Source of the DNA: Ostreococcus lucimarinus
Taxonomy: Eukaryota
Length of the DNA: 64,000 nt
Reading direction: 5' to 3' (one strand)
NCBI GenBank assembly: GCA_000092065.1
Contig: CP000581.1
The translations under genes and the position numbers were made by a program. Under the pieces are notes generated by a model. It ran no database searches. It was not told the origin of the DNA and was given only the letters and a program-made list of their open reading frames with translations. This document shows positions 35,363 to 47,225 of the stretch, piece after piece; the stretch's first letter is position 1, and each line of letters opens with the position of its first letter.

Positions 35363-37123
35363 TTACGACGTCTTCTTCGAGCTCTCGCTCGCACGAAAAG
35401 CTTCTCTGCGACGAAGCTGGAAGTGACGCATCTCACGCATGAAGCCTAACATTAGCGGGAAAATCGTCGGCAATATGATTGGCATCACTGATGCGACTTT
35501 GTACTCGAACGGAAAAGACTCGAGACCGCCGAGAGAGAATGGATCGAAGAACGCTCTCTCCGCCGCCGCGTGCGCCGAGCGCGCGCTCGCGCCGGCTTCG
35601 TCGTACCGTGCGTTCTGCGCCAAATCAATCGCTCGTTCGAGTGCTTCAACCGACTCCAGTATTCTTTCAGCGATAGCGTCCGGAACAGCGATGTCCGCTA
35701 TGCTCGAGATGACCTCGTCAAGCGATTTCAAAGTAGAAATCGTCGATTGCGAATCGGCAACCAATCGCGAATGCACAAGCGCATCGACCTCCCACGTCGC
35801 GAAACCGGTGTGCTTAGGCGGTAAAACCTTTGCTCCGAATTTTTGCAGAAATTCGCCCGCGCCTAAATGAATCCTAAGCTGGCGCACGAAAGCGTTCACG
35901 ACGTTTACAACTTCGTCGTTTCGCAGTCTGATTTCGTTTTCGCCGCGAGCCACCGCACATCCTGGAGGATTGACGACCACGAGCCCACCCCAACCTTCGA
36001 CGATAAACGCATTTGTCGCCGTTAATTCATGATTATCATCCAACACATACAGTGGACACTCGGTTTGAGGCGGTACGTACACCACAAAGTGCAACGGTTT
36101 CCCGTCGATGGGCGTGTACGTCACGGACGTGTCGATCGGCCAGTCTGAATCTATGAAGAATGGTGTCTGCTTCGAGTCAACCACGTATCCCCTGTGTTTG
36201 TCCGACCACATCGGTCGCACCCGACTGCGTGCGTGTCGCAACACTTGTGCCTCGATCCGCACCTCTAATACGCGACTCAACGCTTCCGGGAGCGCGCCGA
36301 GAAACGGTTGCTCGACGTCGCGTTGAAAATCCCATGAAAACGCGTACCCAGGCGTCGGCTCCGCGTTCACCAGACTAAACGATGCGAGCAAGATACCGTC
36401 CGATGTCGTGAGAAACGGTGACGCGCTGGGTGTCGTTTCATCGGCAGGTGCGAATAGCGCGCGAAGTCGTTCCTCCAGTTCATCCGCGAGGAGACGCTCG
36501 TCGTCGAATCGCATCCATGCCGCTCGGTGCGTCCCGACGACAAATTTCCCACGCTCTTCATCGTTTTCACCGCGACGATCGCGCACGACGACGAAGTCGT
36601 ACACCGTCGCGTTCTCGTCCGCGAGCGCGCGCGTCCGCGCGTCGACGTCTTCGTCCGACGCCGCCGCGAGCGCGTCCATCCATCCCTCGCCTCGCCTCGG
36701 CGTCGCCGCCTCGATCGTCACCCAACGCGCGACGTCCTCTAATCCTCGCCTTCGCGCCACCTCTCGCACGATGTTTTCTCCTCCCTCCGCGTCGATCCAC
36801 ACTCGCGCTCGCGCCCGTCGCGTCGACGTCGCTCGCGCCGCGCGCGTCGCCGCGTCCTCGTGATCCACCCTCGCCGTCCTCGCTCTCGTCGGCGCCGTCA
36901 CCGCGCGCGCCGCCATCGCGAGCGCGACGCCGAGCGTCGTCAGCGCGTGCGCGAGCATCGCCAACCGTTTCCCGCGCGGCGTCGCGCCTCCCTTTGCGAA
37001 TCTCGCGCGCTCGGCGTCGTCTCTCGGCGCGTGCGCGCGCGCGCGACGCGCCTCCCTCGCCGCGCGCGCGACGACGACGACGACGACGACGACGAGCGCC
37101 GCGCGATCGCTCGACGCCGACAT
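35363..37123 (-). CDS. PIGS: GPI transamidase component PIG-S
   Basis: Aligns with human PIGS over most of its length, for example NAFIVEGWGGLVVVN vs NAFHSPRWGGIMVYN and AFFDPFSLGGLESFPFEYKVASVMPIILP vs [28 protein letters not shown]. There are N- and C-terminal TM helices. Start chosen at ATG 37123-37121 (MSASSD...GKRLAMLAHALTTLG, compared with human ARGKRAALFFAAV). Confidence 0.8.
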   Translation of the reverse strand: MSASSDRAALVVVVVVVVARAAREARRARAHAPRDDAERARFAKGGATPRGKRLAMLAHALTTLGVALAMAARAVTAPTRARTARVDHEDAATRAARATSTRRARARVWIDAEGGENIVREVARRRGLEDVARWVTIEAATPRRGEGWMDALAAASDEDVDARTRALADENATVYDFVVVRDRRGENDEERGKFVVGTHRAAWMRFDDERLLADELEERLRALFAPADETTPSASPFLTTSDGILLASFSLVNAEPTPGYAFSWDFQRDVEQPFLGALPEALSRVLEVRIEAQVLRHARSRVRPMWSDKHRGYVVDSKQTPFFIDSDWPIDTSVTYTPIDGKPLHFVVYVPPQTECPLYVLDDNHELTATNAFIVEGWGGLVVVNPPGCAVARGENEIRLRNDEVVNVVNAFVRQLRIHLGAGEFLQKFGAKVLPPKHTGFATWEVDALVHSRLVADSQSTISTLKSLDEVISSIADIAVPDAIAERILESVEALERAIDLAQNARYDEAGASARSAHAAAERAFFDPFSLGGLESFPFEYKVASVMPIILPTIFPLMLGFMREMRHFQLRRREAFRASESSKKTS

Positions 37124-37507
37124 CGCGCGCGTCGCGCGCGCGCGCCGCTCTGACGCCGGACGACGCACGTCGACGAGGACGCGAGACGGCGACGCGCGCG
37201 CACGCGAACGATGGACGAGGACGACGCGACGACGCGGGAAGAGGAAGACGAGACGACGAGGCGCGCCGACGAGGCGACGCGCGAGACGCGCTGGGGGGGA
37301 GCGTTCGTGTGCTTCGTGGGGGCGAAACAACGAGGGAGCGCGTCGTCGTCGTCGCGCGGCGGGGCGGCGACGGGAGGACGGTGTCGACGACGGTCGGCGC
37401 TCGTGGCGCTGGAGGAACTCGGGTGCGAGATGAAGCGAGATTTCGGCGCGGCTGGGTTCTTGGCGGCGGCGCGGGAGGCGAACGTGCACGAGTGCGAGGA
37501 CAGCGGG
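37124..37507. promoter_or_regulatory. Divergent promoter between PIGS (-) and a DUF3700 gene (+). It contains a (GAC)n tract at 37070-37095 just inside the PIGS N-terminus.
   Basis: Head-to-head arrangement; very GC-rich. Confidence 0.35.
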
Positions 37508-38029
37508 ATGCTGGCCGTGTTCGTGGGGGAGTTGGAGAATTTGGAGGAAATGGCGCGAGATTGTGATTTGCCGAGCGACGCGAACCCGGCGCACGTGGTG
37601 ACGCAATTGCGGTCTACGTACGGAACGCACTTTCTGGATGAACTCAAGGGGAGTTGGGCGTTCGCCATGGTGCATCCGCAGCGAGAAGCGGTGTTCGCGG
37701 CGGTCGATCGCGACGGTACGCACACGATTTACCGTGGACGAGGGTGTGAGGGCGGGGTGATCATCATGTACGCCCCGCGAGGGTCGAGTTTTAACCCGCG
37801 ACAGTGCGCCGCGCTAGATGTATTTGAGCTCACAAAGGTGCCCGCGGGGAGCTTCATCAGCGGCAACAAACACATCTCACCGCATCGATACGTGATGACG
37901 AAGAGCGATCAAGATTTGGCCGATACGTGTAATACGTTCGACGACATTCAATACGGTGGCGGCGATGGCACCGGACTGAACGATTTTTCAAAGTTGAAGG
38001 CGTCTCTCGAAACGCCTTCAGCGGATTGA
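37508..38029 (+). CDS. DUF3700 / 'aluminium-induced protein'-like (asparagine-synthetase-N-terminal-like Ntn fold, non-catalytic)
   Basis: MLAVFVGELENLEEM...KGSWAFAMVHPQREAVFAAVDRDGTHTIYRG...IIMYAPRGS...VPAGSFISGNKHISPH parallels Arabidopsis AILP1 MLAIFHKAF...EGSFAFVVYD...SVVMSDD...FPNGCMFHSE. An in-frame ATG at 37430 is an alternative start. Confidence 0.55.
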   Translation: MLAVFVGELENLEEMARDCDLPSDANPAHVVTQLRSTYGTHFLDELKGSWAFAMVHPQREAVFAAVDRDGTHTIYRGRGCEGGVIIMYAPRGSSFNPRQCAALDVFELTKVPAGSFISGNKHISPHRYVMTKSDQDLADTCNTFDDIQYGGGDGTGLNDFSKLKASLETPSAD

Positions 38030-38107: not shown

Positions 38108-40195
38108 TTAAAGCTTGGAGACGCCGAAGTTACCGCGGCTCAGCTTTGGTTGCAAGAGCTCGGTGTATCCGGGTGGCGTGTGCTTTCTGTTGAACGGCGC
38201 CGCTTGTACTTCTTCGTACAGTCGGCGGTAGACGTCTCCATCCTTCGCACCGAGCGCGGAGTTTAAGAAATAGTCGTGCAGTCCAAAAGAGTCAACGAGC
38301 GCTGCCGCATCTGGTCGAATTTCAGACAAAAGTTTAAAGATTTCTTGTCGAATCTCGGCCGCTTGTTCGCCGTCGATGTGCCCGTCTTCCAAAAACTCAC
38401 CCATCGTGTCATCCATACCACACAAACCGTGAAGGCAGACGAGGCGATGCAACACGTTTAACGTTTCCGCACTCACTCGAGATCGAGTCTCGTCGTACGC
38501 GAGGACGAAATTATACATGACGACGAACGCGCAATGCGCCTTCGCCGCGCCGATCCACTGTACCATGTGTACTCGCATCGCTTCGTCAGGCGACAAATCG
38601 CCCGTCACCTTGGAGGCTTCCGTGACTAACCGCCACGCCCGATGGGCGTACGCATCGAGGATGGCCTTTTCATCGCGTAAACTTGCGCCGAGAGCAAGCG
38701 CGCTCCGAGAACTTGCACCGTCGAGATAACGGAGCGCGTCCACAGGTGGTTGGCCATTGAGCATTTTTCGGTGCGCCTTTAACAAATACCGAGCGGTTTG
38801 TAAGCAAAGCACGTTGTTGTCACCTTCATACGTCACGTTGGGGGCGTAGGTGGCTAGTGTAGTGCCGAATCCCGCTAGGTTCATGTAGCCGTGACCACCG
38901 CACGTTAGACGACATGCTTCGATGGCATCCTTCGTCGCCCACGAACAGTACGCCTTGAGCCCGCTCGATGTGGCGTGAAGCTCTGGAAGGGCGGAGAAGT
39001 CCTTTTTCTCGCGGGAGTCCCTCTGGAACTCAAAATACATACGGCGCATGTAATCAGACGTGCAGTGAAAGGCAAATGCCTTAGCGAGAATGGGAAACAG
39101 CGTTCGCTGGCTGTGCTGATAATCGATAACTTGGCACTCCATCCCCGTCACCTCGTCGGCGTTCGATTGCCGGCGAACTAAATTGTATCGAATCGCAATA
39201 GTGACGGCTTTCTTCATGTAAAGCGCGGCGTTCATAACGATGTCGGAGCGAATGAAGACCATCGTACCGTACGAAACTTTCGCCACCGGCGCTGGCACGT
39301 ACGTACCGTCGCGTTCAACCTTGGAGTGACCCATCAACATTGCTCGGCGTTGGACGCGAACGTGATCAAATCTCAGAAACCCGTTGTCGACGGCGTTGTA
39401 GCCCATCTTGTTACCGATATCACCTATCGTGCATCCTGGTAACGGCTCATGCGTCTTATTATCGCGAATTTGCACCACGAACGGATGCACGCCATGATCG
39501 ACGCCTTTGGTGAACAATCGAGCCATCACGACGGCGTGTGTGGACGTCTTTCCCAATCCGCCCGGCCACCATTTTGTGCTCGTCAACGTCGGCGAGTGCA
39601 CGACGAACTCCTCGCGCTCTTCATCATAAGTCGCCGTCGTTTCTAGCCCTCTCAAGTAGGTTCCATGTCCGAGCTCCGTCTGCGCGTACGTCCCCACGCA
39701 CTCCAGCTTTACGCACTTTGGAATCCAATACTTTCGCTGTTCCTCGTCCCCTTGCCCTTGAATTGTGGGAATGAACATTCCTAGGTGTAAGTCCAGCCCC
39801 CCGGGTTCGTCGATCAACTCCCGCATGATTCGCGCCACGGCGATGGGTTCTTTCTCATTCATGCTCGCCACCGCGCTCGGCAGCGCCAAGTACATTCGCA
39901 GCGTGCGCTCGTACAGTTCGTCCCGCTCGTCAAAGTACTTGCCTCGCTTACTGAACGCCTCGTTCGTCGTCATCACCGACGCGATTCGCTGACGCAATTT
40001 ATAATTATCCTTCCCTCCCGCGAGCAAGACCTCGAGTTCGCGCGAGTTGAACGACGCCCGCGCGCGCTCGAGTCGCAAATCTTCCTTCGGGTCGCTCGTG
40101 CTCGCCGCGATGACGTCGCTCGATGGTTCGACGAGCGCGCGTGTGTGCGCGTCCACGACGCGGTGGCCGCGACCATCGCGCGAGTCGTCGAGCAT
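38108..40195 (-). CDS. ACOX: Peroxisomal acyl-CoA oxidase with C-terminal PTS1 tripeptide SKL
   Basis: GTYAQTELGHGTYLRGLETTATYDEEREEFVVHSPTLTSTKWWPGGLGKTSTHAVVMARL is the ACX family core. It ends ...NFGVSKL. ATG at 40195-40193; 695 aa. Confidence 0.9.
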   Translation of the reverse strand: MLDDSRDGRGHRVVDAHTRALVEPSSDVIAASTSDPKEDLRLERARASFNSRELEVLLAGGKDNYKLRQRIASVMTTNEAFSKRGKYFDERDELYERTLRMYLALPSAVASMNEKEPIAVARIMRELIDEPGGLDLHLGMFIPTIQGQGDEEQRKYWIPKCVKLECVGTYAQTELGHGTYLRGLETTATYDEEREEFVVHSPTLTSTKWWPGGLGKTSTHAVVMARLFTKGVDHGVHPFVVQIRDNKTHEPLPGCTIGDIGNKMGYNAVDNGFLRFDHVRVQRRAMLMGHSKVERDGTYVPAPVAKVSYGTMVFIRSDIVMNAALYMKKAVTIAIRYNLVRRQSNADEVTGMECQVIDYQHSQRTLFPILAKAFAFHCTSDYMRRMYFEFQRDSREKKDFSALPELHATSSGLKAYCSWATKDAIEACRLTCGGHGYMNLAGFGTTLATYAPNVTYEGDNNVLCLQTARYLLKAHRKMLNGQPPVDALRYLDGASSRSALALGASLRDEKAILDAYAHRAWRLVTEASKVTGDLSPDEAMRVHMVQWIGAAKAHCAFVVMYNFVLAYDETRSRVSAETLNVLHRLVCLHGLCGMDDTMGEFLEDGHIDGEQAAEIRQEIFKLLSEIRPDAAALVDSFGLHDYFLNSALGAKDGDVYRRLYEEVQAAPFNRKHTPPGYTELLQPKLSRGNFGVSKL

Positions 40196-40336: not shown

Positions 40337-41529
40337 CTATTGCGCTTCGCGCTGCTTTCGGCGAGTGTCCAAAACGGCGAGAATGCGGCGCAATGTGATA
40401 CCCTCGCCCGCTCCGTAGCCGTCGACGACGGAGTCCACGCCTGGGAACTCGCCGCCGCGCTGGAGCTGGTTGCGCACCATGACGGAAAAACCACCGGCTG
40501 ACGTGGCTTCGGAACACGTCGCCTGGGATCCACCGATAAAGATGACGTTCTCGGAAGAAAACCCGCGCTGGATGGCGATTTCAGATATCACTTCGGCGGT
40601 GAGCATCGAGCGACGACTCGTGGAGAACATCCCAGCATCGATGATGACGTCCGAGTTGAAGTTTTGGCGCTGCAAATTGCCGCCGATTTCCGGGGCGAGC
40701 AAATCGCCCTTGGTCTTCTTCATCATTCGCGCCGCCTCCGAGCGCGCCTGGGAAGCGATACCTTTGGTGGCGTTGAAACTTTCCGGTGCACCTGTGATGG
40801 AAATCGCCGCCGAGCGAAGTGGACCCAACCCGTGAAGCGCGGCTTCCAACACTCGATCCTCGCTCGTGGACGCCGTCTCGGAGATGATGAGCACTTGTAG
40901 CTTGTCGTTTTCGCGAATACAATCATCCACGAATCGCTCAACCCCGCTTCGAAGCTTGAGCGCGTGCTCGTCAATCATCAACTGGAACTGTTTCTCTTTC
41001 TCGTCGATCAAGTCGCGAAGGAATACGTCCCTCATCCGCGCTTCGTCCTCCCTCGACATCCCCGTCGGCGCGCCCGCGTCGACGACGCCCGCCGCGTCCG
41101 CGAGCGGCACCATATCCCCGAGTCTCTTTATCGCCTTCAAGTACTCGTCGTTATCGATCGCCCTTTTCGCCGTCGCGTTCAACTCGCTCGGGTACCCGTA
41201 AAAGTGAAAGTACCGCTCCAGCATCCCGTACGCGCTCCCGCCGCCGCTTCGCAACAGCGACGCGTACTCCCTGTGGTCCCAGTTCGCGCTCCGCACCCCT
41301 TTCGCCGCGAACGCGCGATTAAACGCGACTCGGTGCCCGTCCCCGTGCACGTCCACGAGCGCGCCGTCGCACTCAATCATCACCAGCGTCGTCTTCCCGT
41401 GCGCGCCGTCCACGACCTCCGTCGACGCGCGCGTCGCGCGCGCGCCCCGTCGACGCGCATTCAAACCACCGCGCCGCGCGAATCGCGTCGCGCGCGCGCC
41501 CGCGCGTCTCGCCGTCGTCATCGGCGTCA

Positions 41530-41536
<7 letters not shown>
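40337..41536 (-). CDS. CBBY: CbbY-like HAD-superfamily phosphatase (plastid xylulose-1,5-bisphosphate phosphatase homolog) with a transit-peptide-like N-terminus
   Basis: TTLVMIECDGALVDVHGDGHRVAFNRAF...LRSGGGSAYGMLERYFHFYGYP...VLIISETASTSE...ENVIFIGGSQATCSEATSAGGFSVMV parallels Arabidopsis CbbY LIFDCDGVILESENLHRQAYNDAF...LVGGGKPKMRWYFKENGWP...LAVCSAATKSS...KDCLVVEDSVIGLQAATKAGMSCVI. Start at ATG 41536-41534 (MTMTPMTTARRAG...). Confidence 0.75.

Positions 41537-41570
<34 letters not shown>
41527..41570. repeat. (GTC)n on the + strand, i.e. (GAC)n on the - strand, overlapping and just upstream of the CbbY start codon
   Basis: gtcatcgtcatc(gtc)11. In the CbbY frame it reads as Thr/Met codons (TTTTTTTTTTTMTMT). 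Confidence 0.9.
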
Positions 41571-41574
<4 letters not shown>

Positions 41575-41974
41575 ACGCGGCGCGCGCGACGTCCGCGAAC
41601 GAACGCACGCACCGACGAGTGCGGGCGCGCGTTCGACGTTCGAAATCGAACGCGCGCCGCGTCCGTCCGTCGGTTTTGCGCCACGTGGCGTGTTTTTTCC
41701 ATCCGACGCGCCGCCCGCCAGGCGACGACGACGACGACGGATGGACGACGGATGACCGACGACCGACGACCGACGCTACTCGACCGCGCGACGGGACCGC
41801 GCGAGGACCCGAGCCGAGTCGCGCGCGGTGTCGGTGACCCGGCGCGCGACCCGGCGCGGCGTCGGTGACCGCGGCGTCGGCGCGCGAACGCGCGCGAACG
41901 CGCCTATCCATCGGCGCTCGCCAACGTTCGGGCGCGAGAAAGTTTGAACGCGACGGCGCGCGGAGGCGCGCGGG

Positions 41975-44900
41975 ATGGAGTACGCGGAGTACAGACCCGA
42001 TAGTAAAAACGTCGCGCTGAAGAATCGCAGCGCGTATCGATTGGTCGGACACACGTGCGCGACGTACGCGCAGTACGTGGTGTACGTCGCCGAGGGCGTG
42101 GCGAAGAATACGTTCAACGCGCTGCGAGGGATAAAAGACTGGCGGACGGATGATGAGAATGGGGAAAAGAATGACTTGACGCCGCTGAGCGCGGGTAAGG
42201 CTAAGGACTTTTTCTACATCGGGAACATGTACGGAAACATCGAGGATACGTTTAATCGACCGATTTATTCGTCGCCGGAGGATTTTATCGACGTCGCGAT
42301 TCGGGCGCCGGAACACAACCGCGGGTACTTTGCGCGCTTGCAAGCGACGCCAGAGTCGAGAAAGTGCTTGAATTTGGGGAGTTATAATTATCTCGGGTTC
42401 GGTGGCGTCAACGAGCACTGCACACCGGTTGTGGAGAAATCTTTGAGCGAGTATCCAGTGACGAGCGGATCGCCCGCGGCGGAGCTCGGACGAGACAAAA
42501 ACTTGCGCGAGGTGGAAGATCTCGTGGCCAGATTCGTAGGCAAAGAGAGCGCGTGCGTGGTCGGTATGGGCTTTGCGACGAATAGTACGGTGATTCCGGC
42601 GCTTTGCTCGAAGGGCGACTTGATCATTTCTGATGCCTTAAATCACGCATCGATCGTTGAAGGCGCGCGCTTGAGCGGGGCAAAGATTCGCCCGTTTAAG
42701 CACCAGTGCGTGGGTGACTTGGAACTCATCTTACAAGACGCGGTTTTGGGTGGATACAATTACAACAAGATTGTCGTCATCGTGGAAGGTATTTATTCCA
42801 TGGAAGGTGAAGTTTGCAACTTGAAGCCGATCGTGGAGGTGGCGAAAATGTACGGCGCGCACGTGTACTTGGACGAGGCACACTCCATCGGCGCCGTCGG
42901 TCCGACGGGGCGAGGCGTGTGTGAAGAGCTTGGCGTTGATACCAAGGACATCACCGTCATGATGGGTACTTTTACCAAGTCATTCGGTGCCGCCGGTGGA
43001 TACGTGGCGGGTGATAAAGAGGTTGTGGAAGCCGTGAAGCGCTTTTCGCTCGGGTACACCGAGGCGGTTTCCATGGCGCCGGCGGTGTGCGCACAAGTCC
43101 TCTCATCTTTGCGTTTGATTTCCGGCGAAGACGGCACAGATATCGGAAAGAAAAAGCTTGATGCGCTCCGAGCAAACTCGGAATTTTTTCGTGATGGCTT
43201 AGTAGCGCTTGGCTTGGAAGTTCTCGGCCATCATCCGTCACCAATCATGCCCGTCATGCTCTATCAACCATACAAGATTGGCGATTTCTCTCGTCTTGCT
43301 TTCAATCGTGGTTTAGCCGTGGTCGTCGTCGGTTCTCCCGCCACGCCGATAACGCTGCCGCGTGTGCGCTTCTGCATTTCTGCTGCGCACAAGAGGGCCG
43401 ATCTGGAGAATGCATTGCACGTGATTTCTGACATTGCCGACGAGCTTTGCCTCAAGTTTAAGAAGTATCCCGCGAACCGATTTTTTCCGGGTTCCATCGA
43501 GGAGCTCGAAAAGCGAGAGCACAAAGAGAGTAAGAAACGAGTAGAGTACGCGTTAAAAAACAGAGAAAAGGCTTTGGAGTCTGCGTCTCGACTCCACTGG
43601 GCCCCCGTTTCCGTGGGCAGCAAGGTAAACGAAGAGATGAAACTCGAAGATGCCAAGGTTGAGCAGTTCGCCAAGTCCGAGATGAAGGATTCGTACGACA
43701 TGGTACTTAGCTCGCAAGATTTCTTAGATTTGACCCTCGACGAAACCATGCGATCTCAGTGCGCTGAAACTATTCATCGCTATGGTCTCGGATCGTGCTC
43801 ACCTCGTGGTTTTTATGGCACATTCCGTCCGCACATGGATTTGGAAGCCAAGATTGCGAAATTTCTCGGCGTGGGTGAAGCTGTGCTTTACTCTTTCGGC
43901 GTTTGCACTGCGTCCAGTGTCATTCAAGCTTTAGCGTCAAAAAGTGATGTGGCTGTGGTCGATCGAGGCGTTGGACCGAGTATCATCGCTGGTTTACGTT
44001 TGGCGAAGCTCGAAATTAGATGGTACAATCACGCCGATCCTGCTGATGCGGCGCGTGTTTTTGCGCAAATTGAAACCGAAGATGGTTCCACGTCTGCGAG
44101 GCTCACCCGACCTGTCAGACGTCGATGGTTGATTACTGAAGCATGTTTTGGCTCCACCGGTCGATGTGCGCCTCTCCGTGAACTTGTAGCTTTGAAGGAT
44201 CATCACCATGCACGAATGATTCTCGATGAGTCGTTCTCCTTTGGCGCCATGGGTGAAAGTGGTCGTGGTCTGATTGAACACGTTGGACTACCCAGCAGCT
44301 CTGTTGATGTCATTTGTGCTTCGTTGGAGAACGCGTGCGCATCTGTGGGTGGTTTTGTGGCCGGAGATACGGGAGTCGTGGCTTACCAACGCTTGATGGG
44401 AAGTGGTTACGTCTTCTCAGCGTCCTTACCGCCCTACCTCGCGACGGCTTCTTTACACGCCATCAGCCGCATCGAAGCTGAACCGGCCATGGTTGAAAAG
44501 CTTCATGACGCGGCGCGACGTACTCGCAGCGCACTCGTCAGTGGAGACATTCCCGGTATGACTACTGATGCAGATGCCGACTCGCCAGTCATCCCCGTCA
44601 AGCTCTCGGCCGGCGTTGGGAGCGGGGACGAGAACATGCTTCTGCATCGCATCGCTGCTCGTATGCGAAGTAAAGGATTTGGTGTGTGCGTGGCTCGAGT
44701 CAGTCCTGTCATTTTACCGTCTCACCGCCCCCCGCCGTCCCTTCGTCTATATGCGCACGCCAGTCACACGGCGGACAAGATTGACAAGATGCTCACAGTG
44801 CTTCGAGATGCTGCGTTGGATATCCTCCCGCAGCACGCTTTAGCGTCGCCATTACCGCAAAAGCGACCGTCGCTCGATCATCAAGTTCACGTTTCGCCCA

Positions 44901-46234
44901 GGTCACTATTCACATCGCAGTCGTACTCTACTGATGCGCCAAGTGTGCCGAAAACGTTCAATAGCAAAGAACTCGAAGCCATCAGGAAAAAGATGATGGT
45001 TGAAGAAGAGATGGAAGAAACCAAGGCTTGGAAACTTTCGCTTCTCGATAACGACATCGATGAAGAGCCGAACAGTCTTTCCGTGCCTCTGCTCGTGGGT
45101 TTACTCTGGTGTCACAATTTATTCCGCCGTTACATCATCGGTCAAATCAACATCACCAAACACTTGGTTCCTAACATTCTCACTAAAGTTGGCTTGCATC
45201 CAGAGCAAGTCGGAACCGTCGGTCGCACTTTCCACGTCATTTCAATGTGGTTAGGCAGCCGAAACTTTTACTATTTAGTACTTCCCGTTATCGTGTGGAC
45301 TGTGGACAGCAGTTACGCGCAGTTAATGATGATTATTTACTGCATGAGCTGCGCCTACGGCTGCCTGACGAAGGGTACGATGAGCACTCAGAGCTCGAGT
45401 AAGCGACCGGCGCAAAGTTCTCTCGGCGCTCTAGCTCCTCATAAGGTGTACGCATGGCCATCGATTGCTGGTATGAATGCTTCCGCCATTCCTTTCTTCG
45501 TGCTTCGTTGGAGATACGGCAGCGTGCCGCTTTGGGAGATGGAGCATCCTTACATCGTCGTCGGAGATTACCTACTCGCATTCGCTTATATGATGGCGAT
45601 CGTAATCAGCCGCTTGGCCACTGGTGAGTCGCCAGCCAATATGCAGGGTGGTGTAGTACTCGGTGCGGTCGGGCTGCGACTGGTTTTACCTCTCATGGAT
45701 TGGTGCAACGCCGGCCTCCAGGCTGGGACGGTGATGACGACGCAAGGCGCTTCTTTCCTCGCCTTGACGTCCGCGGCGATTCTTCTTTTCCCTGTCCCGC
45801 TGAACAGCCGAGGTCACATTCTTGTCGCCGCGCAGACGTGCTACCGCCGCATGTGGCGCACCTTGTTTTACATGCTTGCATTCATAGTGGGCGCGATTTG
45901 GCGCGAAAAGCCGACGAAAGTCGCGGCGTTTCCAACGACAATCCGTGAGTGGTTCACCTTGATTGCCGCGAAGGCTATCATCGGCCACATCGTTCTTTAC
46001 GTCGTTGTTCTCGCGATTGGATCCCTCGCTAAGATTAGTTTCGAAGGTGCCCTTCGCCTCTATGTGCGAGAGATTAAACCGCGCGTGCAAAAGCCCGGGC
46101 ACAAGAGCGGCTCCGTCGGCACGGTGCACATGCGCCGCGCCGCACTCTACTTCGTCGAGCTCGCCCAGGACATCACCGCCGGTCTCACCACTGCGAACGT
46201 TGTTCCAAAAATTTTCGACGCGCTCGCAATTTAA
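41975..46234 (+). CDS. LCB2/LCB1: Single-polypeptide serine palmitoyltransferase: an N-terminal LCB2-like PLP aminotransferase domain, a central LCB1-like domain, and a C-terminal ~370-aa polytopic membrane domain of unknown family
   Basis: Residues ~150-480 (GSYNYLGFGG...GFATNSTVIPAL...LNHASIVEGARLSGA...GTFTKSFGAAGGYVAG, with the PLP-lysine context) are LCB2/SPTLC2-like. Residues ~560-1000 (CSPRGFYGTFRPHMDLEAKIAKFLG...ILDESFSFGAMGESGRGLIEH...SASLPPYLATASLHAI) are LCB1/SPTLC1-like. Residues ~1050-1419 have several long hydrophobic helices. It is a 1419-codon uninterrupted ORF with ATG at 41975. Confidence 0.85.
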   Translation: MEYAEYRPDSKNVALKNRSAYRLVGHTCATYAQYVVYVAEGVAKNTFNALRGIKDWRTDDENGEKNDLTPLSAGKAKDFFYIGNMYGNIEDTFNRPIYSSPEDFIDVAIRAPEHNRGYFARLQATPESRKCLNLGSYNYLGFGGVNEHCTPVVEKSLSEYPVTSGSPAAELGRDKNLREVEDLVARFVGKESACVVGMGFATNSTVIPALCSKGDLIISDALNHASIVEGARLSGAKIRPFKHQCVGDLELILQDAVLGGYNYNKIVVIVEGIYSMEGEVCNLKPIVEVAKMYGAHVYLDEAHSIGAVGPTGRGVCEELGVDTKDITVMMGTFTKSFGAAGGYVAGDKEVVEAVKRFSLGYTEAVSMAPAVCAQVLSSLRLISGEDGTDIGKKKLDALRANSEFFRDGLVALGLEVLGHHPSPIMPVMLYQPYKIGDFSRLAFNRGLAVVVVGSPATPITLPRVRFCISAAHKRADLENALHVISDIADELCLKFKKYPANRFFPGSIEELEKREHKESKKRVEYALKNREKALESASRLHWAPVSVGSKVNEEMKLEDAKVEQFAKSEMKDSYDMVLSSQDFLDLTLDETMRSQCAETIHRYGLGSCSPRGFYGTFRPHMDLEAKIAKFLGVGEAVLYSFGVCTASSVIQALASKSDVAVVDRGVGPSIIAGLRLAKLEIRWYNHADPADAARVFAQIETEDGSTSARLTRPVRRRWLITEACFGSTGRCAPLRELVALKDHHHARMILDESFSFGAMGESGRGLIEHVGLPSSSVDVICASLENACASVGGFVAGDTGVVAYQRLMGSGYVFSASLPPYLATASLHAISRIEAEPAMVEKLHDAARRTRSALVSGDIPGMTTDADADSPVIPVKLSAGVGSGDENMLLHRIAARMRSKGFGVCVARVSPVILPSHRPPPSLRLYAHASHTADKIDKMLTVLRDAALDILPQHALASPLPQKRPSLDHQVHVSPRSLFTSQSYSTDAPSVPKTFNSKELEAIRKKMMVEEEMEETKAWKLSLLDNDIDEEPNSLSVPLLVGLLWCHNLFRRYIIGQINITKHLVPNILTKVGLHPEQVGTVGRTFHVISMWLGSRNFYYLVLPVIVWTVDSSYAQLMMIIYCMSCAYGCLTKGTMSTQSSSKRPAQSSLGALAPHKVYAWPSIAGMNASAIPFFVLRWRYGSVPLWEMEHPYIVVGDYLLAFAYMMAIVISRLATGESPANMQGGVVLGAVGLRLVLPLMDWCNAGLQAGTVMTTQGASFLALTSAAILLFPVPLNSRGHILVAAQTCYRRMWRTLFYMLAFIVGAIWREKPTKVAAFPTTIREWFTLIAAKAIIGHIVLYVVVLAIGSLAKISFEGALRLYVREIKPRVQKPGHKSGSVGTVHMRRAALYFVELAQDITAGLTTANVVPKIFDALAI

Positions 46235-46370
46235 AAGACGCTGTAACACCATTCGTTTTTCAATAGTCTTGTCCGCCAGCTGCGAAAGAAAGAAAGCGCC
46301 CGCCTCTCGGAGGTTGTCTTTTCCACAAGATGAGGGAGGTGCCGACGCCAGTTCGCGCTCGACGTCGAAG

Positions 46371-47225
46371 ATGTCCGCCACCGCGAACTCTCGCGCGTAC
46401 GTCGCTGACGTCAAATCCCGGTCTTCGTCCCGTGGACGACGCGCTGTGAAATCGCGCCGCGCGCACACCACGCCGCGCGCCGTCGGCGTGAGCGATGACG
46501 TCGTCACATCTTCGTCGTCGTCCTCTTCTGATTCTATCGAGAACGGGCCGTGTAAGATGAATATTTACGCCCTGGCCGCGTGTGCGGGACGCGGTGAAGC
46601 CGCGACGACGCAGCAGCGCGACGAGATGCGCGCGCTTGTGCGCTCGTTGACGAATCCCACGGCGGCGCCGGCGCGAGACGAGCGGCTCAACGGAACGTGG
46701 GAGTTGGTGTACGAGAGCAGCGGTTTTCCGTTCCGCTCGTCCCCGTTTTTTTGGGCCGTGGGTAAGCTCCTTGGTGAGAATGCTGACTTCTTTTACGGCG
46801 CGCACGAGCATCAGACGAGCATGTTTGGCGGCGGCTGCGGGACGTGCTTGCAGAAAATCTCCGAAGGCGCGCTCGAGAGCGACTGCATCGTCAAGGCTTC
46901 GCTGGGCGTCCCACTCCTCGGATTCGCCCCGCTTTTCTCTGGATACGGTTCCGTGATAACTAAGGGTACGACTCGGGTGTTGGACGACGACACGATCGCG
47001 ATGCCACTGGGATCTTTGTCGACGACGGTGCGGCAAGACGACGCCAATGTTTTGCCAGCGTTGAACTTCTTGAATGGCACCACGGTTCCCGTAGGCGACG
47101 TCATGGGTCGAATCGCCGATGGTGAGTCCGAGGTCACCATGCGCATAACTTACCTCGACGAGGACATGCGCGTGAGCGAGTTAGAGGACGGCACGCAGCT
47201 GGTCTATCGTCGACGCGTCGCGTAA
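46371..47225 (+). CDS. Plastid-lipid-associated protein / fibrillin family (PAP_fibrillin domain) with an N-terminal Ser/Arg-rich transit-peptide-like region
   Basis: LTNPTAAPARDERLNGTWELVYESSG matches the NPTP...L.G.W.L.YTS motif, and C-terminal ITYLDEDMRVSELEDGTQLVYRR matches the TYLD.ELRI.RG motif. ATG at 46371; the upstream ORF extension is Ser/Arg-rich and was rejected as coding start. Confidence 0.7.
   Translation: MSATANSRAYVADVKSRSSSRGRRAVKSRRAHTTPRAVGVSDDVVTSSSSSSSDSIENGPCKMNIYALAACAGRGEAATTQQRDEMRALVRSLTNPTAAPARDERLNGTWELVYESSGFPFRSSPFFWAVGKLLGENADFFYGAHEHQTSMFGGGCGTCLQKISEGALESDCIVKASLGVPLLGFAPLFSGYGSVITKGTTRVLDDDTIAMPLGSLSTTVRQDDANVLPALNFLNGTTVPVGDVMGRIADGESEVTMRITYLDEDMRVSELEDGTQLVYRRRVA

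What the first reader, a model, noticed from the sequence alone, without database searches (positions are those of the whole stretch)
41975..46234. All-in-one serine palmitoyltransferase: LCB2-LCB1 fusion carrying an extra ~370-aa polytopic membrane domain
In canonical eukaryotes SPT is an LCB1/LCB2 heterodimer encoded by separate genes. Here a single 1419-codon ORF carries an LCB2-like PLP domain, then an LCB1-like domain, then a multi-helix hydrophobic C-terminal region (residues ~1050-1419) that fits no SPT subunit I recognise. From general knowledge, natural LCB2-LCB1 fusions are known from the coccolithophore Emiliania huxleyi and its virus EhV, where they underlie virus-controlled sphingolipid synthesis. 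Finding one in what looks like a green-lineage picoalga, with an added membrane module, could represent a self-contained sphingoid-base synthesis unit. The extra domain could be a fused regulatory ORM/ssSPT-like subunit or a downstream pathway enzyme; that is speculation. The sequence directly shows the domain order and the uninterrupted frame.
Basis: partly seen in the sequence, partly recalled or inferred. Interest (0 to 1): 0.7.

Follow-up and report, generated by a model that had tools for sequence, protein, structure and literature searches.

The report
Single-chain SPT with dead phosphatase tail
This Ostreococcus gene makes the first enzyme of sphingolipid synthesis as one chain (LCB2 then LCB1) joined to a membrane domain descended from a sphingoid-base-phosphate phosphatase that has lost its catalytic histidines; the architecture is real, widespread in marine algae and already in databases, but apparently uncharacterised.

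The parts
41975..46234 (+). Complete ORF, 1419 codons plus stop: single-chain LCB2-LCB1-pseudoPAP2 serine palmitoyltransferase
   Evidence: ORF. (in-frame stop 10 codons upstream; 1 to 4 mismatches to P0004, P0219, P0223, P0227; P0223 is a complete MMETSP transcript ORF).
42059..43474 (+). LCB2-type catalytic domain (aa 29-500)
   Evidence: Arabidopsis LCB2a 7yjk_B E 1.5e-132, human SPTLC2 E 1.7e-118. Pfam Aminotran_1_2 at aa 130-484.
42962..42988 (+). PLP-binding motif MGTFTKSFG; the PLP lysine is K335 (42977-42979). DEAHSIG lies at 42872-42892
   Evidence: residue-level alignment to AtLCB2a; coordinates.
43475..43594 (+). Charged 40-aa linker (aa 501-540) in the place of the LCB1 N-terminal TM1 region
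   Evidence: the match to full-length AtLCB1 begins only at its residue 75; no hydrophobic segment here; sequence.
43595..44821 (+). LCB1-type non-catalytic domain (aa 541-949). The Lys-equivalent site reads SLENACASVG (44321-44350), with no lysine
   Evidence: AtLCB1 7yjm_A E 8.5e-77, human SPTLC1 E 6.5e-73; coordinates.
44822..45073 (+). Ser/Pro-rich then acidic linker (aa 950-1033), poorly conserved between lineages
   Evidence: alignment of tails; sequence.
45074..46231 (+). PAP2-fold, SGPP/Lcb3-related pseudophosphatase membrane domain (aa 1034-1419). It is the only TM-like part of the protein
45371..45409 (+). Degenerate PAP2 motif C1: K1133-GTMSTQSSSKRP. The Lys is invariant; the canonical K-x6-RP spacing is lost
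45455..45469 (+). Degenerate PAP2 motif C2: WPSIA (canonical WPSTH). Ser1163 is invariant; the catalytic His is replaced by Ala1165
45608..45640 (+). Degenerate PAP2 motif C3: SRLATG-ESPAN (canonical SRLYLGVHSPAD). Arg1213 is kept; the nucleophile His is replaced by Glu1218 with a 1-aa deletion; Asp is replaced by Asn1222

Best explanation
The gene encodes an ER-membrane serine palmitoyltransferase made as one polypeptide. An active LCB2 domain with the PLP lysine is followed by its obligatory partner LCB1, without that subunit's usual N-terminal TM helix. Last comes a domain of about 9-10 helices that descends from a sphingoid-base-1-phosphate phosphatase (PAP2 superfamily, SGPP/Lcb3 subfamily). 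This domain has lost the histidines needed for phosphate hydrolysis, so it is a pseudophosphatase.

Shown: domain identities and order, the PAP2 fold, homology to intact SPP-type phosphatases, loss of the catalytic residues in every fused homologue examined, and the absence of any other TM-like segment.

Inferred with good support: the dead domain is the membrane anchor that places the cytosolic catalytic pair on the ER membrane, replacing LCB1 TM1.

Inferred with weaker support (about 0.35): because the old phosphate-binding pocket is the most conserved part of the tail, it still binds a lipid and couples that to SPT activity or to partner enzymes. The lipid could be a long-chain base, its phosphate, or ceramide. 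That would be a built-in counterpart of ORM/ssSPT-type regulation. By analogy with Lcb3 topology (from memory), an N-terminus in the cytosol would put the pocket on the lumenal side.
For: Domain identity.

Tail homology:
- A profile of the window tail plus two close relatives, searched against 1.84 billion proteins, finds standalone proteins of about 350-500 aa at E 1e-26 to 1e-4. These have intact KNLFCLPRP / WPSTH / SRLYLGVHSPAD motifs. One is named sphingosine-1-phosphate phosphatase (Hondaea).
- hhalign of green tails against haptophyte-type tails gives probability 100%, E 4.3e-42, over the full length. Those tails pass Pfam PAP2 gathering at 28-34 bits.
- Subfamily: haptophyte-type tails against SGPP1 give 98.8%, E 5e-17, 300 columns; against Lcb3 97.2%.

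Pseudoenzyme status: C3 His is lost in 50/50 fused tails and C2 His in 47/50, while 17/17 standalone relatives are intact.

Pocket conservation: C1 Lys 50/50, C2 Ser 50/50, C3 Arg 49/50. Seven of the 12 invariant tail columns fall in the 33 motif positions (hypergeometric p 1e-5).

Anchor: no 19-aa window in aa 1-1030 exceeds KD 1.52, and the best ones lie inside the aminotransferase folds. Eight of the ten tail-less two-domain fusions sampled (dinoflagellates, Perkinsus) carry strongly hydrophobic segments near the N-terminus (KD 1.9-2.5). AtLCB1 residues 1-74 have no counterpart.

Single mRNA: the complete MMETSP transcript ORF is 99.7% identical.
Against: - No experiment bears on function.
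- In the window's own (green) type, the C1 Arg-Pro is lost. An acidic residue (Glu/Asp) sits where the nucleophile His was, and the C3 Asp is Asn. The acidic side chain could pair with the conserved Lys and Arg and fill the anion site, so the pocket may no longer bind a phosphate ester at all. That weakens an LCB-phosphate-sensor reading for this protein specifically.
- Conservation of motif residues could reflect fold stability rather than ligand binding.
- The green tail alone matches recalled SGPP1 only weakly (71.7%, E 3.5e-5). Its subfamily assignment therefore leans on transitive homology.
- Monophyly of all fused tails has only 58/200 NJ bootstrap support.
- Topology (pocket lumenal, N-terminus cytosolic) is inferred, not computed with a dedicated predictor.
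Confidence: 0.75

Rival explanations
1. Bifunctional enzyme: the tail is an active sphingoid-base-1-phosphate phosphatase, so the protein both starts de novo synthesis and recycles LCB-phosphate. This is what the NCBI name of the Micromonas orthologue, 'aminotransferase/sphingosine-1-phosphatase', implies.
For: The tail is homologous to SPP-type phosphatases. The annotation exists. C1 Lys, C2 Ser and C3 Arg are retained. Three fused proteins keep the C2 His (P0045, P0048, P0050).
Against: The C3 histidine forms the phospho-enzyme intermediate in all characterised PAP2 phosphatases (established knowledge of the family). It is replaced in 50/50 fused tails. The C2 His is replaced in 47/50. In the window protein C1 Arg-Pro and C3 Asp are also gone. 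All 17 standalone relatives keep every position, so the losses are specific to the fused form.
Confidence: 0.05
2. Pure anchor or scaffold: the dead PAP2 domain only tethers the soluble LCB2-LCB1 pair to the ER membrane, and perhaps mediates oligomerisation. It has no ligand-sensing or regulatory function.
For: The tail is the only TM-like region. LCB1 TM1 is missing. In the green type the phosphate site is further degraded and carries an acidic residue that could fill it.
Against: A simple anchor needs one helix, as most of the tail-less two-domain fusions sampled appear to show. Here a domain of about 386 aa is kept at 20-26% identity between the window tail and haptophyte-type tails. Its invariant residues are concentrated in the former active site (p 1e-5).
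Confidence: 0.3
3. Artefact: two or three adjacent genes read as one because of an assembly error, a missed intron or stop, or a chimeric gene model.
For: In the related contig L001, a Pilon-polished assembly, the syntenic gene is split into several called ORFs.
Against: The frame is uninterrupted in the window. A complete transcript ORF of identical length differs at 4 residues. Transcript-derived full-length ORFs exist for O. mediterraneus, Micromonas, Bigelowiella and Lotharella, and GenBank holds a full-length E. huxleyi record, AID57147.1. GC3 is similar across the domains. The splits in L001 look like frameshift errors: P0003 and P0002 are near-identical apart from shifted stretches.
Confidence: 0.01

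Closest known systems
Single-chain LCB2-LCB1 serine palmitoyltransferase of coccolithovirus EhV (ehv050), described as a natural chimera with an N-terminal SPT2-like and a C-terminal SPT1-like domain (PMC6148460)
   Same: One polypeptide with the same order: LCB2 with the PLP lysine first, then LCB1 without it.
   Different: The viral enzyme is described as two domains ending in the LCB1-like part. The window protein, like the E. huxleyi host SPT, continues into a PAP2-like membrane domain of about 386 aa. I could not retrieve EhV sequence with these tools, so absence of the tail in the virus rests on the literature description.
Heteromeric eukaryotic SPT-ORM/ORMDL-ssSPT complex (for example Arabidopsis 7yjk, human 6m4n)
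   Same: The catalytic pair is clearly orthologous (E 1e-132 and 1e-76). The complex also joins a membrane-embedded regulatory part to a cytosolic catalytic part.
   Different: Here the subunits are fused. The LCB1 TM1, which in the solved complexes contacts ORM/ssSPT (from memory of those structures), is absent. The membrane part is a PAP2-fold domain unrelated to ORM (4 TM) or ssSPT (1 TM).
SGPP1/2, yeast Lcb3/Ysr3 and plant SPP1: sphingoid-base-1-phosphate phosphatases (PAP2 superfamily)
   Same: The same fold and a multi-helix membrane layout extending beyond the six-helix PAP2 core. Sequence homology is recognisable across the whole membrane domain. The surrounding motif context is shared (LGSxxFY, WPS, SR...SPA[DN]).
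   Different: Both catalytic histidines are replaced. The domain is fused behind SPT rather than standalone.
Micromonas pusilla CCMP1545 XP_003056568.1 'aminotransferase/sphingosine-1-phosphatase' and E. huxleyi AID57147.1 'serine palmitoyltransferase 1'
   Same: The same three-part architecture, alignable from end to end. The Micromonas protein is the window protein's orthologue within Mamiellales; the E. huxleyi protein is a more distant homologue.
   Different: None in kind. The annotation implies an active phosphatase, which the motif analysis contradicts.
Catalytically inactive PAP2 proteins such as the PLPPR/PRG family (from memory)
   Same: A PAP2 fold retained with key catalytic residues substituted, suggesting binding or scaffolding rather than hydrolysis.
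   Different: A different PAP2 subfamily (LPP-like), not fused to a biosynthetic enzyme. No sequence comparison was made here.

Membership tests
SPT LCB2 / SPTLC2 subunit (alpha-oxoamine synthase, catalytic) | Best sequence match is to LCB2 rather than LCB1 or bacterial AOS enzymes | tested here: met
   AtLCB2a 446 bits and SPTLC2 400 bits, against bacterial SPT/KBL at 183 bits or less and LCB1 at about 119 bits or less.
SPT LCB2 / SPTLC2 subunit (alpha-oxoamine synthase, catalytic) | PLP-binding lysine (GTFTKSFG) and the DEAHSIG histidine | tested here: met
   K335 in MGTFTKSFG; DEAHSIG at aa 300-306.
SPT LCB2 / SPTLC2 subunit (alpha-oxoamine synthase, catalytic) | Condenses serine with acyl-CoA | not testable with these tools
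   Needs an enzyme assay or yeast lcb2 complementation.
SPT LCB1 / SPTLC1 subunit | Best match is to LCB1, and the PLP lysine is absent | tested here: met
   AtLCB1 262 bits against LCB2 115 bits. The Lys-equivalent site reads SLENACAS.
SPT LCB1 / SPTLC1 subunit | N-terminal transmembrane helix (TM1) | tested here: not met
   the alignment starts at AtLCB1 residue 75; a charged linker precedes it, with no hydrophobic segment.
Natural single-chain LCB2-LCB1 SPT (EhV / E. huxleyi type) | Both domains in one ORF, in the order LCB2 then LCB1 | tested here: met
   Transcript support.
PAP2 superfamily (PF01569) | PAP2 helical fold | tested here: met
PAP2 superfamily (PF01569) | Passes the Pfam PAP2 gathering score | tested here: not met
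   no PAP2 hit for the window tail at E up to 1. Homologous haptophyte-type tails do pass at 28.3 to 34.3 bits against a cut-off of 27.2, and the window tail aligns to them at E 4e-42.
PAP2 superfamily (PF01569) | Catalytic motifs C1 K-x6-RP, C2 PSGH, C3 SR-x5-H-x3-D | tested here: not met
   the window has K...(no RP in register), WPSIA and SRLATG-ESPAN. Both His and the Asp are replaced.
Sphingoid-base-1-phosphate phosphatases (SGPP1/2, Lcb3/Ysr3, SPP1) | Closer to this subfamily than to other PAP2 subfamilies, over the whole membrane domain | tested here: met
   the nearest non-fused relatives are PAP2 proteins of about 350-500 aa, one of them named S1P phosphatase; the fused-tail profile against SGPP1 gives 97.8% (E 1e-12) and against Lcb3 95.6%, against PLPP1 and PgpB below 1%.
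Sphingoid-base-1-phosphate phosphatases (SGPP1/2, Lcb3/Ysr3, SPP1) | Intact catalytic histidines and phosphatase activity | tested here: not met
   for the residues. Activity itself is not testable here.

The most novel reading that the evidence does not exclude
The dead SPP-type domain is a built-in lipid sensor. It binds a long-chain base, its phosphate or ceramide in the relic active site on the lumenal side and allosterically sets the activity or acyl-CoA preference of the fused cytosolic SPT. This would give these algae an ORM-independent, single-polypeptide sphingolipid homeostat. The E. huxleyi host SPT has this module, while the coccolithovirus SPT is described as LCB2-LCB1 only. The virus enzyme would then be a version stripped of the regulator, which would help explain how infection overrides host sphingolipid control.
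Probability: 0.2. Interest if true: 0.8.

Novelty: new variant of a known kind. Interest (0 to 1): 0.55.

Why it matters
SPT is the rate-limiting, tightly regulated entry step of sphingolipid synthesis. In animals, fungi and plants it is controlled by separate ORM/ORMDL and ssSPT subunits. This study shows a different arrangement in several major marine phytoplankton groups: Mamiellales, pyramimonads, chlorarachniophytes and haptophytes, including the bloom-former E. huxleyi. In these groups the enzyme is a single chain whose only membrane part is a relic of the pathway's own LCB-phosphate phosphatase, with the catalytic histidines consistently removed. That corrects an existing database name that implies a bifunctional enzyme. 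It gives a concrete and cheaply testable hypothesis for how SPT is anchored and perhaps regulated in these algae. It also points to a structural difference between host and viral SPT in the E. huxleyi-EhV system, where virus-driven sphingolipid synthesis decides the fate of blooms.

Tried and rejected
1. Direct Pfam, NCBIfam and PDB sequence searches of the tail alone found nothing.
2. The first AF2 run, with a 3-sequence alignment, was unusable (pLDDT 38). It was replaced by a 49-sequence alignment.
3. The AFDB50 fold library was not available, so no named AlphaFold SGPP or Lcb3 models could be compared.
4. I could not obtain coccolithovirus SPT or any viral tail homologue:
   - The search for related loci in viral contigs with the tail, with the E. 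huxleyi-type protein and with a 10-sequence alignment all failed.
   - blastn and tblastn against the phage collection found only bacterial KBL/BioF-like genes.
   - The BFVD fold search gave no significant hit.
5. Nine literature searches found no paper describing an SPT-PAP2 or SPT-phosphatase fusion (one search was a malformed query and did not run). Monier 2009 and Ziv 2016 are not held, so prior description there cannot be excluded.
6. The first NJ bootstrap run, with Biopython, timed out. It was redone in numpy.
7. Rejected: the tail as an ORM/ssSPT-like subunit (no similarity, PAP2 fold).
8. Rejected: a gene-fusion artefact (transcript evidence).
9. Rejected: an active bifunctional enzyme (catalytic residues lost).
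10. The last homologue search, with standalone P0175, returned only generic or 'putative S1P phosphatase' names and no experimentally characterised member.

Full report
**1. Observation**

The ORF listing returns one ATG-started ORF at 41975..46234 (+) of 1419 codons. An in-frame stop lies 10 codons upstream of the ATG. The window is gene-dense with long intronless ORFs and 50-65% GC. Its neighbours are ordinary nuclear genes: acyl-CoA oxidase, PIG-S, a fibrillin and an amine oxidase. The closest named relative of the protein is Ostreococcus mediterraneus SPT (84% identity). Bathycoccus prasinos and Micromonas pusilla orthologues were identified. The window is therefore from an Ostreococcus-type picoalga.

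The frame is genuine. P0004 differs from the translation at 1 residue. P0223, an MMETSP transcript ORF annotated complete and also 1419 aa, differs at 4 residues.

**2. The two aminotransferase halves**

Pfam finds two Aminotran_1_2 stretches.

- **LCB2 half (aa 29-500).** It matches solved Arabidopsis LCB2a at E 1.5e-132 and human SPTLC2 at E 1.7e-118, far above LCB1 or bacterial enzymes. It keeps MGTFTKSFG (PLP lysine K335) and DEAHSIG.
- **LCB1 half (aa 541-949).** It matches AtLCB1 (E 8.5e-77) and human SPTLC1 (E 6.5e-73) best. At the lysine position it reads SLENACAS, as expected for the non-catalytic partner.
- **Missing TM helix.** The match to full-length AtLCB1 starts only at its residue 75. 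The LCB1 N-terminal TM helix is absent, and a 40-aa charged linker (aa 501-540) takes its place.

**3. The tail is a PAP2 domain of the SPP subfamily**

On its own the tail (aa 1034-1419) hits nothing in Pfam, NCBIfam or PDB sequences.

*Homologues.* A full-length homologue search showed the three-part protein in many lineages: Ostreococcus spp., Bathycoccus, Micromonas, Cymbomonas, Bigelowiella, Lotharella, Diacronema, Phaeocystis and Emiliania huxleyi. In the haptophyte-type members Pfam detects PAP2 (PF01569) above its gathering threshold, at 28.3-34.3 bits against 27.2, spanning nearly the whole profile.

*Profile comparisons.* Tail profiles align from end to end. Green against haptophyte-type gives probability 100% and E 4.3e-42 over 350 columns. 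Green against chlorarachniophyte gives E 1.7e-54.

*Exhaustive search.* An HMMER search of 1.84 billion representative proteins with the Ostreococcus-level tail profile found 84 proteins at E up to 1e-3. They include standalone proteins of about 350-500 aa at E 1e-26 to 1e-4. One of these is named sphingosine-1-phosphate phosphatase (Hondaea). Its own relatives are PAP2 proteins with the same or generic names.

The two SPP sequences were validated by strong BLAST matches to database proteins, for example E 6e-23 over 329 aa with P0138. Results:

| Profile | SGPP1 | Lcb3 | PLPP1 | PgpB |
|---|---|---|---|---|
| Haptophyte-type tails | 98.8%, E 5e-17, 300 columns | 97.2% | 0.1% | 2.4% |
| All fused tails | 97.8%, E 1e-12 | 95.6% | 0.2% | 0.5% |
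| Green tails only | 71.7%, E 3.5e-5 | 4.8% | 0.3% | 0.1% |

The green-only result is weak, so assignment of the window tail to the SPP subfamily is largely transitive.

**4. The tail is catalytically dead**

I aligned 50 fused tails with 17 standalone relatives.

| PAP2 position | 17 standalone relatives | 50 fused tails |
|---|---|---|
| C1 Lys | 17/17 | 50/50 |
| C1 Arg-Pro | 17/17 | Kept only in the haptophyte-type tails |
| C2 Ser | 17/17 | 50/50 |
| C2 His | 17/17 | 3/50 (P0045, P0048, P0050) |
| C3 Arg | 17/17 | 49/50 |
| C3 His (nucleophile) | 17/17 | 0/50 |
| C3 Asp | 17/17 | Kept in haptophyte-type tails and three green/chlorarachniophyte-type tails (P0026, P0027, P0037); Asn in Mamiellales |

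- The C3 His is Glu or Asp with a 1-aa deletion in nearly all green and chlorarachniophyte tails, and Ser, Thr, Ala or Cys in haptophyte-type tails.
- The window reads K1133, then WPSIA (A1165 at the C2 His position), then SRLATG-ESPAN (E1218 at the C3 His position, N1222 at the Asp position).
- The C3 histidine forms the phospho-enzyme intermediate in PAP2 enzymes (established knowledge of the family), so canonical catalysis is excluded.
- The relic site is nonetheless the most conserved part of the tail. Seven of the 12 invariant columns fall within the 33 motif positions (hypergeometric p 1e-5).

**5. The tail is the only membrane segment**

- No 19-aa window in aa 1-1030 exceeds a Kyte-Doolittle mean of 1.52. 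The top windows lie within the aminotransferase folds.
- The tail has several windows at 1.8-2.4 and about 9-10 long predicted helices.
- Eight of the ten tail-less two-domain LCB2-LCB1 fusions sampled (dinoflagellates, Perkinsus; about 1040-1130 aa) carry strongly hydrophobic segments near the N-terminus (KD 1.9-2.5).
- The helix map places C1, C2 and C3 in loops on one side of the membrane. If the tail's N-terminus is cytosolic, as it must be after the cytosolic LCB1 domain, that side is the lumen (inference). This agrees with what I recall of Lcb3 topology.

**6. Evolution**

NJ with 200 bootstraps gave these supports:

- Green and chlorarachniophyte tails group together in 200/200. This is consistent with the green-algal ancestry of the chlorarachniophyte plastid, and they share the 1-aa deletion and the acidic residue.
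- Fused tails plus the KN...WPSxH-type standalone phosphatases separate from the KD...FPSTH type in 168/200.
- Monophyly of all fused tails appears in the best tree but has only 58/200 support.

A single fusion and inactivation followed by transfer is therefore plausible but not shown.

**7. Mechanism**

Shown: a single chain with an active LCB2, an LCB1 without TM1, and a dead SPP-type PAP2 domain that is the sole membrane part.

Best inference: the pseudophosphatase anchors the catalytic pair on the ER membrane.

Weaker inference (about 0.35): its conserved relic pocket still binds a sphingoid lipid and modulates SPT or docks partner enzymes, a built-in analogue of ORM/ssSPT. Against this, for the window protein specifically, the C1 Arg-Pro is lost and Glu1218 could pair with the conserved Lys and Arg and fill the anion site. 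I could not inspect the model coordinates.

**8. Comparison with what is known, and novelty**

- The LCB2-LCB1 single chain is known from coccolithovirus. It is described as a two-domain chimera whose C-terminal domain is SPT1-like (PMC6148460). In EhV-18 and EhV-145 the two subunits are encoded by separate genes (PMC5371807).
- The three-part form is already in public databases. The Micromonas pusilla CCMP1545 protein XP_003056568.1 is named 'aminotransferase/sphingosine-1-phosphatase'. E. huxleyi AID57147.1 'serine palmitoyltransferase 1' (1435 aa) is the host enzyme and has the tail.
- Nine full-text searches found no paper that describes the SPT-phosphatase fusion or its inactive state. 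A recent O. tauri sphingolipid preprint only says SPT was 'readily identified'.
- Monier 2009 and Ziv 2016 are not held, so I cannot exclude that the host tail is mentioned there.
- I could not retrieve EhV sequences. The host-versus-virus contrast therefore rests on the literature description.

**9. Verdict**

The gene is an orthologue of already catalogued proteins. What is apparently new is the recognition that the extra domain is a consistently inactivated SPP-type PAP2 module and the only membrane anchor. I rate it a new variant of a known kind, interest about 0.55.

Noticed in passing
window 38108-40195 (-) and locus L001 1-2016: An acyl-CoA oxidase gene (ACOX N, middle, C-alpha1 and C domains) lies just upstream of the SPT gene on the opposite strand. 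The same ACOX-SPT neighbourhood is present in the related 282-kb ENA contig L001, so local synteny is conserved between these picoalgae.
   Followed up: partly
L001 7823-11557: In the related contig, a Pilon-polished assembly, the syntenic SPT is called as five or more separate short ORFs. P0003 contains stretches that look frameshifted relative to the near-identical P0002. This is probably residual assembly indels, and is a caution for gene calls from such assemblies.
   Followed up: partly
window 41373-41760, both strands: A trinucleotide-type low-complexity run between the SPT gene and its upstream neighbour reads as poly-Asp, poly-Thr or poly-Arg depending on frame (DDDDDDDDDDDDDDDD / TTTTTTTTTTT / RRRRRRRRRRR). 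It lies in the N-terminal region of the 40337-42418 (-) ORF, which has no Pfam hit. By eye the ORF's C-terminal half resembles a HAD/CbbY-like hydrolase.
   Followed up: no
window 45686-46507 (-) and 45963-47225 (+): Long mechanical ORFs overlap the 3' end of the SPT gene. The (+) one carries a PAP_fibrillin match only from its residue 208 onward, so the real fibrillin gene probably starts downstream of the SPT stop. The overlaps are likely GC-rich-DNA ORF artefacts.
   Followed up: partly
homologues P0045, P0048, P0050: A small subgroup of fused tails, from an unidentified protist transcriptome and metagenomes, keeps the C2 histidine (WPSIH) while still lacking the C3 histidine (ARLYFGRSSPAD). 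This may be an intermediate stage of inactivation.
   Followed up: no
homologues P0115, P0120, P0123, P0084, P0064 and others: Dinoflagellates (Prorocentrum and others) and Perkinsus have tail-less LCB2-LCB1 fusions of about 1040-1130 aa, most with hydrophobic segments near the N-terminus; the Pelomyxa fusion (899 aa) shows no such segment. Single-chain SPT is thus much more widespread among protists than the EhV / E. huxleyi example suggests. P0070, from Symbiodinium, is additionally joined to a ribosomal protein L15 domain, probably a gene-model chimera.
   Followed up: partly
window 35363-37723 (-): A PIG-S (GPI transamidase subunit) homologue is encoded two genes upstream. This is another ER membrane-lipid-related gene, but there is no evidence of functional linkage.
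   Followed up: no
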